Below, one piece after another: positions 13,351-13,714 of a stretch of 64,000 bases of DNA. The translations under genes were made by a program, and so were the position numbers. This DNA comes from Escherichia coli O157:H7. Its GTDB lineage: Bacteria > Pseudomonadota > Gammaproteobacteria > Enterobacterales > Enterobacteriaceae. Numbering within the stretch: the stretch's first letter is position 1; each line of letters opens with the position of its first letter. The notes below the pieces were generated by a model, which was not told the DNA's origin, did not search any database, and saw only the letters and a list, made by a program, of their open reading frames with translations. The stretch lies in assembly GCF_013167455.1 (NCBI RefSeq), contig NZ_CP038328.1; one strand, written 5' to 3'.

Positions 13351-13714
13351 TGCCTGATGCGACGCTGGCGCGTCTTATCAGGCCTACGCAGGGGTAGAAC
13401 CGTAGGTCGGATAAGGCGTTTACGCCGCATCCGACAGCCGTTGCCTGATGCGACGCTGGCGCGTCTTATCAGGCCTACGCAGGGGTAGAACCGTAGGTCG
13501 GATAAGGCATTCACGCCGCATCCGACAGGCGTTGCCTGATGCGACGCTGGTGCGTCTTATCAGGCCTACGCAGGGGTAGAACCGTAGGTCGGATAAGGCG
13601 TTCACGCCGCATCCGACAGCCGTTGCCTGATGCGACGCTGGTGCGTCTTATCAGGCCTACGCAGGGGTAGAACCGTAGGTCGGATAAGACGTTTACGCCG
13701 CATCCGACACGCAT
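13351..13714. repeat. BIME/REP array: four tandem 91-bp units, each with two inverted REP motifs
   Basis: Unit tgcctgatgcgacgctggcgcgtcttatcaggcctacgcaggggtagaaccgtaggtcggataaggcgtttacgccgcatccgacagccgt recurs at 13351, 13442, 13533 and 13624 with a few substitutions. Confidence 0.92.

What the first reader, a model, noticed from the sequence alone, without database searches (positions are those of the whole stretch)
13351..13714. Four tandem 91-bp BIME units between dedD and cvpA
A 364-bp array of four near-identical units, each carrying two REP palindromes in opposite orientation. The unit copies differ by a few substitutions, and the array makes three spurious track ORFs with the same MNALSDLRFYPCVGLIRR start. 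Such arrays are known binding sites for DNA gyrase and IHF and targets of the REP-associated transposase, and the copy number may vary between strains.
Basis: partly seen in the sequence, partly recalled or inferred. Interest (0 to 1): 0.35.

Follow-up and report, generated by a model that had tools for sequence, protein, structure and literature searches.

The report
Known BIME-2 REP array after dedD
This is an ordinary, already described kind of E. coli intergenic repeat: four tandem 91-bp BIME-2 units (eight REP hairpins) just downstream of dedD, and the number of units differs between strains (0 to 7).

Summary
Tandem Repeats Finder reports a 91-bp period, 4.0 copies and 97% matches at 13350-13709. 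Each unit is a z2-type REP, a 14-nt linker, an inverted y-type REP and a 6-nt linker. That is the textbook BIME-2 architecture.

The array lies 9 nt after the dedD stop codon. It sits upstream of a conserved intrinsic terminator and of the PurR-controlled cvpA-purF promoter, so it is most likely dedD 3'UTR.

- IHF sites belong to BIME-1. This array has no IHF core, even allowing two mismatches.
- Only two ORFs, not three, start with MNALSDLRFYPCVGLIRR.

Copy number does vary:
- It ranges from 0 to 7 units across sampled E. coli genomes. One unit is commonest, as in K-12.
- It ranges from 2 to 6 units within the O55:H7/O157:H7 complex. Sakai and EDL933 have 3; the window has 4.
- Unit-type strings fit in-register loss or gain of units by unequal exchange.

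One strain carries IS621 inserted exactly at the array's ATCAGGCCT^AC target. Published Topo-seq data list gyrase cleavage sites in the K-12 ortholog. The array also matches Rfam naRNA4, but a 2026 preprint disputes that RNA's proposed nucleoid role.

Verdict: real, well explained, already known, low interest.

The parts
12680..13342 (+). dedD coding sequence; stop codon TAA at 13340-13342
   Evidence: ORF list. RefSeq annotation of the 100%-identical O157:H7 record maps to these coordinates.
13350..13713 (.). BIME-2 array: four tandem 91-bp units, unit types a-g-c-e
   Evidence: TRF period 91, 4.0 copies, 97% matches, score 671. Unit alignment. Unit typing.
13352..13388 (+). z2-type REP, unit 1. 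It is in the iREP orientation on the + strand (CTAC at the 3' end). It contains the TGCC|TGAT and GGCC|TAC sites and the IS621 target ATCAGGCCTAC (13377-13387).
   Evidence: 100% match to the z2 consensus. Hairpin -21.4 kcal/mol. IS621 target matches.
13388..13401 (.). Short tail-to-tail (S-type) linker GCAGGGGTAGAACC. It repeats at +91, +182 and +273.
   Evidence: Read from the sequence. Too short for an IHF site, and no IHF core is present.
13402..13436 (-). y-type REP, unit 1 (GTAG at 13402-13405 on the + strand). It is a locus-specific variant with a compensatory C-G to T-A stem pair relative to the y consensus.
   Evidence: BLAST to the y consensus, 97%. Hairpin -18.8 kcal/mol.
13437..13442 (.). 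Head-to-head linker GCCGTT. This internal junction differs from the terminal junction CGCATT at 13710-13715.
   Evidence: Sequence.
13443..13479 (+). z2-type REP, unit 2
   Evidence: 100% match to the z2 consensus.
13493..13527 (-). y-type REP, unit 2
   Evidence: 91%.
13534..13570 (+). z2-type REP, unit 3 (loop GGTG)
   Evidence: 97%.
13584..13618 (-). y-type REP, unit 3
   Evidence: 94%.
13625..13661 (+). z2-type REP, unit 4
   Evidence: 97%.
13675..13709 (-). y-type REP, unit 4
   Evidence: 94%.
13405..13657 (+). Three Rfam naRNA4 (RF02564) matches above the gathering score, at 13405-13475, 13496-13566 and 13587-13657. Each covers one y hairpin plus the next z2 hairpin.
   Evidence: Bit scores 83.3, 72.0 and 79.5 against a gathering score of 59.5.
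13714..13735 (.). Non-REP flank TTGTCCGATGCCGCAAAGGCAT with a small hairpin. Its first 11 nt resemble the start of a unit. It is present in the empty allele, and related sequence occurs in Salmonella and Citrobacter.
13744..13781 (+). Intrinsic-terminator-like hairpin plus T-run downstream of the array. It probably ends the folC-dedD transcript.
   Evidence: Terminator scan. Hairpin -18.0 kcal/mol, z -5.8. Conserved in the 14 Enterobacteriaceae intergenic regions I read.
13802..13830 (+). PurR-box-like ACGCAAACGTTTTCTT and a TAGAAT -10-like hexamer of the cvpA-purF promoter, downstream of the array
   Evidence: Sequence. Conserved across genera. The PurR assignment rests on my own knowledge of the purF operator.
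13874..14362 (+). cvpA coding sequence

Best explanation
The feature is a BIME-2 element: four tandem copies of a z2-REP / short linker / inverted y-REP unit (eight REP palindromes). It occupies the 3' untranslated region of dedD in an E. coli O157:H7 chromosome.

Shown at the DNA level. It is a locally evolving repeat. The same site is occupied in E. albertii and in two cryptic Escherichia lineages, so it predates E. coli. Unit number changes in register, from 0 to 7. The allele strings are best explained by unequal homologous exchange or slippage between the 91-bp units. For example, in RM12579 (a-b-c-d-c-e) unit d is the body of e joined to an internal junction. RayT-mediated cutting and joining at C|T sites is a possible but unproven contributor.

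Shown or published. Each z2 REP carries the natural IS621 target, and one strain has IS621 inserted exactly there. Gyrase cleavage has been mapped in the K-12 ortholog.

Inferred at the RNA level. No terminator lies between the dedD stop and the array, and a conserved intrinsic terminator follows it. The array is therefore probably transcribed as eight stable hairpins starting 9 nt after the stop codon. By analogy with REP325 and other REPs, these hairpins would block 3'-exonucleases and stabilise folC-dedD mRNA. They would also attenuate read-through towards cvpA-purF. Being within 16 nt of the stop codon, they could slightly depress DedD translation.
For: Periodicity and anatomy.

REP typing: z2 97-100% and y 91-97% identity to published consensus sequences, alternating in orientation.

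BIME-2 definition (z2 + y, short S linker, tandem copies, copy number variable between strains) and the RayT requirements: Ton-Hoang 2012.

No IHF core.

Hairpin energies are -21.4 and -18.8 kcal/mol; the whole-region fold has z -10.

The terminator lies after the array and is conserved across genera.

Stop-to-stem distance is 9 nt. The <16-nt rule of Liang 2015 is taken as cited.

REP325, a 12-PU z2/y array, acts as a partly Rho-dependent terminator and an mRNA stabiliser. REP325 has the same architecture with a 100-bp period.

Gyrase cleavage sites are listed in the K-12 cvpA-dedD BIME-2, within a general enrichment of such sites in BIME-2.

IS621 insertion at ATCAGGCCT^AC in the orthologous z2 REP of strain B25FEP; published natural target ATCAGGCCTAC.

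Allele census. Unit strings.

Same site occupied in E. albertii (2 units), Escherichia sp. E1V33 (7) and MOD1-EC7003 (1).

rayT is present in 3574 of 5426 genomes, including O157:H7.
Against: No expression data were available, so transcription of the array and every RNA-level effect are inferences.

A rare natural allele with no units (2 of 60 sampled genomes) shows that no particular state is required, as do the common one-unit allele and genera that lack any element at this site (Trabulsiella and Yokenella, intergenic region 153 bp).

The REP325 preprint stresses that REP effects depend on context and that terminal REPs do not globally lengthen mRNA half-life.

The sequence data cannot separate RecA-type unequal exchange, replication slippage and RayT activity.

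Gyrase sites in the K-12 ortholog were seen under only two of four conditions, and that allele has one unit.

Some copy-number differences in older assemblies could be assembly collapse. However, arrays of 273-364 bp are shorter than Sanger reads, and both the Sakai record and the 2014 EDL933 record (CP008957) show 3 units.
Confidence: 0.85

Rival explanations
1. The array is neutral or selfish repeat DNA with no measurable effect on dedD or cvpA-purF expression. It persists only through local amplification and weak selection.
For: Copy number ranges from 0 to 7, including a clean empty allele and a decayed 162-bp allele in strain WW2. Other genera carry unrelated palindromic elements or nothing at the same site. 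REP effects are reported to be context-dependent and often absent.
Against: The site has stayed occupied across the genus Escherichia. The hairpins are very stable and start 9 nt after the stop codon. Published work says REPs that close to a stop codon affect translation. The closest studied array, REP325, changes expression of its neighbours 3- to 10-fold at its own locus.
Confidence: 0.3
2. The array is a dedicated BIME-based transcription attenuator controlling cvpA-purF, as proposed for the element upstream of cvpA by Naville and Gautheret 2010.
For: That paper clusters the BIME upstream of cvpA with those upstream of gatY and rbfA as candidate attenuators. BIMEs and REP325 do attenuate transcription.
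Against: The PurR-box promoter of cvpA-purF lies downstream of both the array and a strong, conserved intrinsic terminator. The array is therefore not in the cvpA leader, and only read-through from dedD could be affected. Strains with 0 units exist.
Confidence: 0.1
3. The array encodes naRNA4-like nucleoid-associated RNAs that work with HU to condense the chromosome.
For: Three matches to Rfam RF02564 (naRNA4) lie above the gathering score on the dedD-sense strand.
Against: The Rfam model is built from REP325 units, so any y-z2 pair will match it. A 2026 preprint that includes the original senior author reports that deletion or overexpression of REP325 does not change nucleoid volume, and that REP-REP contacts are not seen in Hi-C.
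Confidence: 0.04
4. The repeated ORFs (MNALSDLRFYPCVGLIRR... on the minus strand, MRRW... on the plus strand) encode real small proteins.
For: ORFs of 35-95 aa exist in the array on both strands.
Against: They exist only because the repeat unit lacks stop codons in some frames. Their start codons are not conserved between units (GTG in units 2 and 3, GTA in units 1 and 4). One of them overlaps the 3' end of dedD on the opposite strand. They change or vanish with copy number between strains. They have no Pfam match. RefSeq annotates no gene there.
Confidence: 0.01

Closest known systems
BIME-2 family of E. coli bacterial interspersed mosaic elements (Gilson/Bachellier nomenclature, summarised in Ton-Hoang et al. 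2012, PMC3333891)
   Same: Alternating z2 and y REPs in inverted orientation, short linkers, tandem multiplication, extragenic position, copy number variable between strains, and gyrase cleavage reported in this class and at this very locus in K-12.
   Different: Nothing of substance. The y REP here carries a locus-specific compensatory stem change (GTCGGAT...ATCCGAC instead of GCCGGAT...ATCCGGC), and the linkers (14 and 6 nt) are locus-specific. The family definition allows both.
REP325 / naRNA4 array between yjdM and yjdN of E. coli K-12 (Rfam RF02564)
   Same: The same z2/y tandem architecture in the 3'UTR of the upstream gene of a same-strand gene pair. Units here score above the Rfam gathering threshold.
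   Different: REP325 has a 100-bp period and 5.8 units (12 PUs), with different linkers. This array has a 91-bp period and 4 units, and is followed by its own intrinsic terminator.
BIME-1 (also called RIB/RIP elements; y + z1 REPs with the IHF-binding L linker)
   Same: It also contains a y REP paired with an inverted z-type REP.
   Different: BIME-1 is single-copy, uses z1 rather than z2, and has a long conserved L linker with an IHF site. Here the REPs are z2, the linkers are 14 and 6 nt, and no IHF core is present.
REP-targeting insertion sequence IS621 (IS110 family, bridge-RNA recombinase)
   Same: Each z2 REP of the array contains the published natural target ATCAGGCCTAC. A natural IS621 insertion at that exact site of the orthologous locus was found in strain B25FEP.
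   Different: The window itself carries no IS. The array is a target, not part of the IS.

Membership tests
BIME-2 | Composed of z2-type and y-type REPs (palindromic units) | tested here: met
   BLAST against the published consensus sequences gives four z2 matches (97-100%) and four y matches (91-97%), and no z1. The consensus sequences are quoted.
BIME-2 | [quoted passage not shown] | tested here: met
   All z2 are on + and all y on -. The linkers are 14 nt (GCAGGGGTAGAACC) and 6 nt (GCCGTT).
BIME-2 | Occurs as multiple tandem copies whose number varies between strains at a locus | tested here: met
   4.0 copies here. The orthologous locus has 0-7 copies in other E. coli and Escherichia genomes.
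BIME-2 | Extragenic location | tested here: met
   It lies between the dedD stop (13342) and the cvpA start (13874).
BIME-2 | Bound and cleaved by DNA gyrase in vivo | not testable with these tools
   Published Topo-seq Table DS3 lists gyrase cleavage sites in the one-unit K-12 W3110 ortholog: RifCfx 2, microcin B17 1, Cfx 0, Oxo 0. There are no data for the four-unit O157:H7 allele.
BIME-1 (IHF-binding RIB/RIP element) | z1 + y REPs separated by a long conserved L linker carrying an IHF site; single copy | tested here: not met
   No z1 REP is present. The linkers are 14 and 6 nt. WATCAANNNNTTR has 0 matches in 13343-13743 at 0, 1 or 2 mismatches, against 2.95 expected at 2 mismatches. The element is tandem rather than single-copy.
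[quoted passage not shown] | GTAG tetranucleotide 5' of the hairpin foot, a mismatch in the stem, and C|T cleavage sites (TGCC|TGAT, GGCC|TAC) in the partner iREP | tested here: met
   GTAG precedes every y hairpin on + (for example 13402-13405) and every z2 hairpin on -. The stems are 79-86% complementary with an internal mismatch. TGCCTGAT and GGCCTAC are present in every z2. Actual cleavage was not testable. A rayT gene exists in O157:H7 genomes but not in this window.
Rfam RF02564 naRNA4 | Covariance-model score at or above the curated gathering score | tested here: met
   Scores of 83.3, 79.5 and 72.0 bits against 59.5. The proposed function (HU-dependent nucleoid condensation) is not testable here and is disputed.
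IS621 natural target site | 11-nt target ATCAGGCCTAC with a CT core | tested here: met
   Four exact copies lie in the array. A natural insertion ...ATCAGGCCT-[IS621]-ACGCAGG... is present at the ortholog in strain B25FEP.

The most novel reading that the evidence does not exclude
The number of BIME-2 units at this site may act as a heritable, lineage-specific dial on DedD (a cell-division protein) level or on read-through into cvpA-purF. Examples are 3 units in O157:H7 Sakai, EDL933 and 86-24, and 4 in TW14359, EC4115 and this window. If so, the in-register gains and losses seen in the O55:H7/O157:H7 complex would have phenotypic consequences rather than being neutral length variation.
Probability: 0.08. 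Interest if true: 0.4.

Novelty: already known. Interest (0 to 1): 0.12.

Why it matters
It matters little beyond annotation hygiene.

- **Annotation.** The region should be labelled as a BIME-2/REP repeat region, and the repeat-derived ORFs should not be called as genes.
- **Typing.** The locus is a clean 91-bp variable-number repeat. It separates sublineages of O157:H7 (3 versus 4 units) and varies from 0 to 7 units species-wide. That could serve as a typing marker, and it is a trap for short-read assembly.
- **Natural experiment.** The natural series of 0-, 1-, 2-, 3-, 4-, 5-, 6- and 7-unit alleles in otherwise near-identical flanks could test whether REP copy number tunes expression of neighbouring genes. 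Recent REP325 work leaves that question open.

Tried and rejected
1. A fuzzy-regex census of REPs timed out. I replaced it with blastn-short.

2. Liang et al. 2015 could not be read directly. Its <16-nt rule is cited second-hand from PMC12306157.

3. The supplements of Ton-Hoang 2012, which show per-locus copy-number variation, are not held.

4. The K-12 RefSeq table in this collection lists no repeat_region feature for the locus, so the official REP number for this element could not be retrieved.

5. The first search, using the full array as query, gave misleading spans because BLAST pieces collapse on the repeat. For example, a 6-unit allele appeared as a partial match. A query made of the joined flanks (the empty-site allele) solved this.

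6. I first thought the O157:H7 array was a recent re-expansion from a K-12-like single unit. I rejected this for two reasons. The internal junction (GCCGTT) differs from the terminal one (CGCATT), so the K-12 unit looks like a collapse product. In addition, O55:H7 relatives carry 4-6 units.

7. I first considered the empty allele as a candidate ancestral state. I rejected this because all four other Escherichia lineages examined are occupied at the same site, and because the empty allele sits in flanks otherwise associated with 3-7 units.

8. The ungapped unit comparison for E. albertii is meaningless because of a one-base indel, and I ignored it.

Full report
**Observation**

Tandem Repeats Finder reports one array at 13350-13709 with period 91, 4.0 copies, 97% matches, no indels and score 671. 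The four units align without gaps and differ at seven positions.

The inverted-repeat search finds two imperfect palindromes per unit, with 14-nt arms that are 79-86% complementary. The region folds far better than shuffled sequence, with a z-score of -10. Individual hairpins have energies of -21.4 and -18.8 kcal/mol.

The flanking genes are folC, dedD (12680-13342), cvpA (13874-14362) and purF, all on the + strand. The window is 100% identical over this kilobase to E. coli O157:H7 chromosomes.

**Anatomy**

I compared the array with published REP consensus sequences, which are quoted.
- There are four z2-type REPs on the + strand, at 13352-13388, 13443-13479, 13534-13570 and 13625-13661. They are 97-100% identical to the consensus.
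- There are four y-type REPs in the opposite orientation, at 13402-13436, 13493-13527, 13584-13618 and 13675-13709. They are 91-97% identical.
- The two linkers are GCAGGGGTAGAACC (14 nt, tail-to-tail) and GCCGTT (6 nt, head-to-head).

This is exactly the definition of BIME-2: z2 plus y, a short S linker, and tandem copies. That definition, as restated by Ton-Hoang et al. 2012, contrasts with BIME-1, which has z1 plus y, is single-copy, and has a long L linker that often carries an IHF site.

The IHF core WATCAANNNNTTR has no match in 13343-13743 at 0, 1 or 2 mismatches. The window's own rate predicts 2.95 matches at 2 mismatches.

The y REPs carry a locus-specific compensatory stem change, GTCGGAT/ATCCGAC instead of GCCGGAT/ATCCGGC. 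The E. coli and other Escherichia alleles I read carry it in nearly every unit. A few B2 and E1V33 units have single extra substitutions there.

**ORFs**

Two minus-strand ORFs (13227-13514 and 13420-13605) start with GTG-MNALSDLRFYPCVGLIRR. The third (13511-13735) only contains VNVLSDLRFYPCVGLIRR internally, because units 1 and 4 have GTA where units 2 and 3 have GTG. Four plus-strand ORFs start with MRRW. The ORFs I scanned (three minus-strand, one plus-strand) have no Pfam match. RefSeq annotates nothing in this interval, and the ORFs change with copy number between strains. They are translation artefacts of the repeat.

**Context**

The first z2 stem begins 9 nt after the dedD stop codon (TAA at 13340-13342; stem from 13352). 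The terminator scan reported no terminator-like site between the stop codon and the end of the array. Directly after the array comes a 22-nt non-REP flank. A strong terminator-like hairpin with a T-run follows at 13744-13781 (-18.0 kcal/mol, z -5.8). Next come ACGCAAACGTTTTCTT (13802-17) and TAGAAT, upstream of cvpA. From my own knowledge, ACGCAAACGTTTTCTT is the PurR operator of the cvpA-purF promoter.

The terminator, operator and promoter are conserved in the Enterobacteriaceae intergenic regions I read, from 14 of the 80 loci fetched, whereas the stretch between the dedD stop and the terminator is not. The array is therefore most probably part of the dedD 3'UTR. It does not appear to be a leader of cvpA.

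**Variation between strains**

A query made of the joined flanks measures the length of the insert in each genome. I listed 60 genomes taken at even steps through the ranking of 5,425 matching E. coli genomes.

| State at the locus | Genomes (of 60) |
|---|---|
| 0 units | 2 |
| 1 unit (as in K-12, intergenic region 258 bp) | 40 |
| 3 units | 9 |
| 4 units | 6 |
| 7 units | 1 |
| Decayed 162-bp allele | 1 |
| Interrupted by IS621 | 1 |

Two-unit and six-unit alleles appeared in another sample.

I then listed the 60 best matches to the O157-type flanks. All belong to the O55:H7/O157:H7 complex.

| Units | Genomes (of 60) | Examples |
|---|---|---|
| 4 | 39 | TW14359, EC4115, the window |
| 3 | 16 | Sakai, EDL933, 86-24 |
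| 2 | 1 | Xuzhou21 |
| 5 | 1 | O55:H7 CB9615 |
| 6 | 3 | O55:H7 RM12579 |

| Strain | Unit string |
|---|---|
| RM12579 | a-b-c-d-c-e |
| CB9615 | b-f-d-c-e |
| USDA5905 | a-b-c-e |
| Window | a-g-c-e |
| Sakai | a-g-e |
| Xuzhou21 | a-e |
| K-12 | h (start of a joined to the end of e) |

Unit d is the body of e joined to an internal junction. That is what an unequal crossover between positions 72 and 88 of misaligned units would produce. All changes are whole multiples of 91 bp. These patterns fit unequal homologous exchange or slippage. They do not exclude RayT-mediated cutting and joining at C|T sites.

A rayT gene is found in 3,574 of 5,426 genomes, including O157:H7. The annotation covering window 1-50000 lists no rayT.

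**Age of the array**

The same site is occupied in other Escherichia lineages: E. albertii has 2 units, Escherichia sp. E1V33 has 7, and MOD1-EC7003 has 1. Salmonella arizonae has a single REP-like palindrome there. Citrobacter species have their own REPs, Enterobacter cloacae has an unrelated long palindrome, and Trabulsiella and Yokenella have nothing.

The array is thus older than E. coli. The rare empty allele has the junction TAATACGGTC|TTGCCCGATGCC, which lies between two TTGCCyGATGC repeats. It is most simply read as a derived clean deletion.

**Known interactions checked**

- **Gyrase.** Sutormin et al. 2019 report enrichment of gyrase cleavage sites in BIME-2, mostly in y REPs. Their Table DS3 lists the K-12 W3110 BIME-2 between cvpA and dedD with 2 sites under rifampicin plus ciprofloxacin and 1 with microcin B17. 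It lists none with ciprofloxacin alone or with oxolinic acid.
- **RayT.** The sequence requirements for RayT are all present: GTAG at the hairpin foot, a stem mismatch, and the sites TGCC|TGAT and GGCC|TAC.
- **IS621.** The published natural target ATCAGGCCTAC occurs once per z2 REP, so four times in the array. Strain B25FEP carries IS621 inserted at ...ATCAGGCCT-[IS]-ACGCAGG... in the orthologous REP.
- **naRNA4.** Three y-plus-z2 pairs match Rfam naRNA4 above the gathering score. That model derives from REP325, a z2/y array with a 100-bp period and 5.8 units. A 2026 preprint reports that REP325 does not compact the nucleoid. It acts instead as a partly Rho-dependent terminator and an upstream-mRNA stabiliser, and it yields a ladder of hairpin-containing transcripts.
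- **Stop-codon proximity.** REPs closer than 16 nt to a stop codon are reported to lower translation of the upstream gene (Liang 2015, as cited). This array meets that criterion at 9 nt.
- **Earlier mention of this locus.** The BIME upstream of cvpA was already noted by Naville and Gautheret 2010 as a possible attenuator.

**Mechanism**

What is shown:
- The element is a BIME-2 array at an old, genus-wide site.
- Its copy number changes in register.
- It is a natural IS621 target.
- Its K-12 ortholog is cut by gyrase.

What is inferred:
- It is transcribed as the tail of the folC-dedD message.
- Its eight hairpins impede 3'-exonucleases and attenuate read-through.
- Its proximity to the stop codon may reduce DedD output.

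The main rival is that it has no measurable effect on its neighbours. The 0-7 unit range and the existence of the empty allele keep that rival alive.

**Verdict**

The finding is correct and well explained by existing knowledge. It is an already known kind of element at a locus already mentioned in the literature. Interest is low. The only mildly useful outputs are the correction about IHF and the clean natural allele series.

Noticed in passing
L004 2624-4160 (E. coli B25FEP, orthologous dedD-cvpA spacer): An IS621 (IS110-family, bridge-RNA recombinase) copy is inserted in the single z2 REP of this locus at ATCAGGCCT^AC. This is the published natural target, and it occurs four times in the window's array.
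   Followed up: yes
L002 794-960 (E. coli 23AR0303); also hits H61 and H62: A rare 'empty' allele exists: the dedD-cvpA spacer is 167 bp with no REP at all. The junction lies between two TTGCCyGATGC repeats. The flanks are of the type that otherwise carries 3-7 units.
   Followed up: partly
window 13744-13830: A terminator hairpin with T-run, a PurR-box-like ACGCAAACGTTTTCTT and a TAGAAT hexamer upstream of cvpA are nearly invariant from Escherichia to Klebsiella, Atlantibacter and Yokenella. The segment just upstream of them is a hot spot for genus-specific palindromic elements.
   Followed up: partly
L014 about 1280-1350 (Enterobacter cloacae DSM 26481, same spacer): A different long, near-perfect palindrome (CCCTCACCCTAACCCTAACCCTCTCCCC...GGGGAGAGGGTTAGGGTTAGGGTGAGGGG) occupies the position that the BIME-2 array holds in Escherichia. 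I did not identify it.
   Followed up: no
window 12985-13032; L003 3161-3811: dedD contains a 24-bp, two-copy tandem repeat in its Pro/Lys/Glu-rich linker region (TRF score 61). dedD is 651 nt instead of 663 nt in strain 21AR0173, so the linker length is polymorphic.
   Followed up: no
window 486-566: A second, single-unit BIME (z2 on +, y on -) lies between the convergent genes mnmC and yfcL. A partial z2 REP lies at 3994-4017 between yfcJ and fabB.
   Followed up: no
window 44422-44464: This is the only other Rfam match above gathering score in the window: nuoG RNA (RF01748), 50.3 bits, on the + strand within the nuo operon region.
   Followed up: no
L006 594-780 (E. coli WW2): A decayed allele of 162 bp: one diverged unit plus a z2 REP and a y REP that has lost about 20 nt. 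This shows that units can erode as well as be lost whole.
   Followed up: partly
window 12680-12690: The dedD start overlaps the end of folC by 11 nt, which is consistent with the two genes being co-transcribed and translationally coupled.
   Followed up: no
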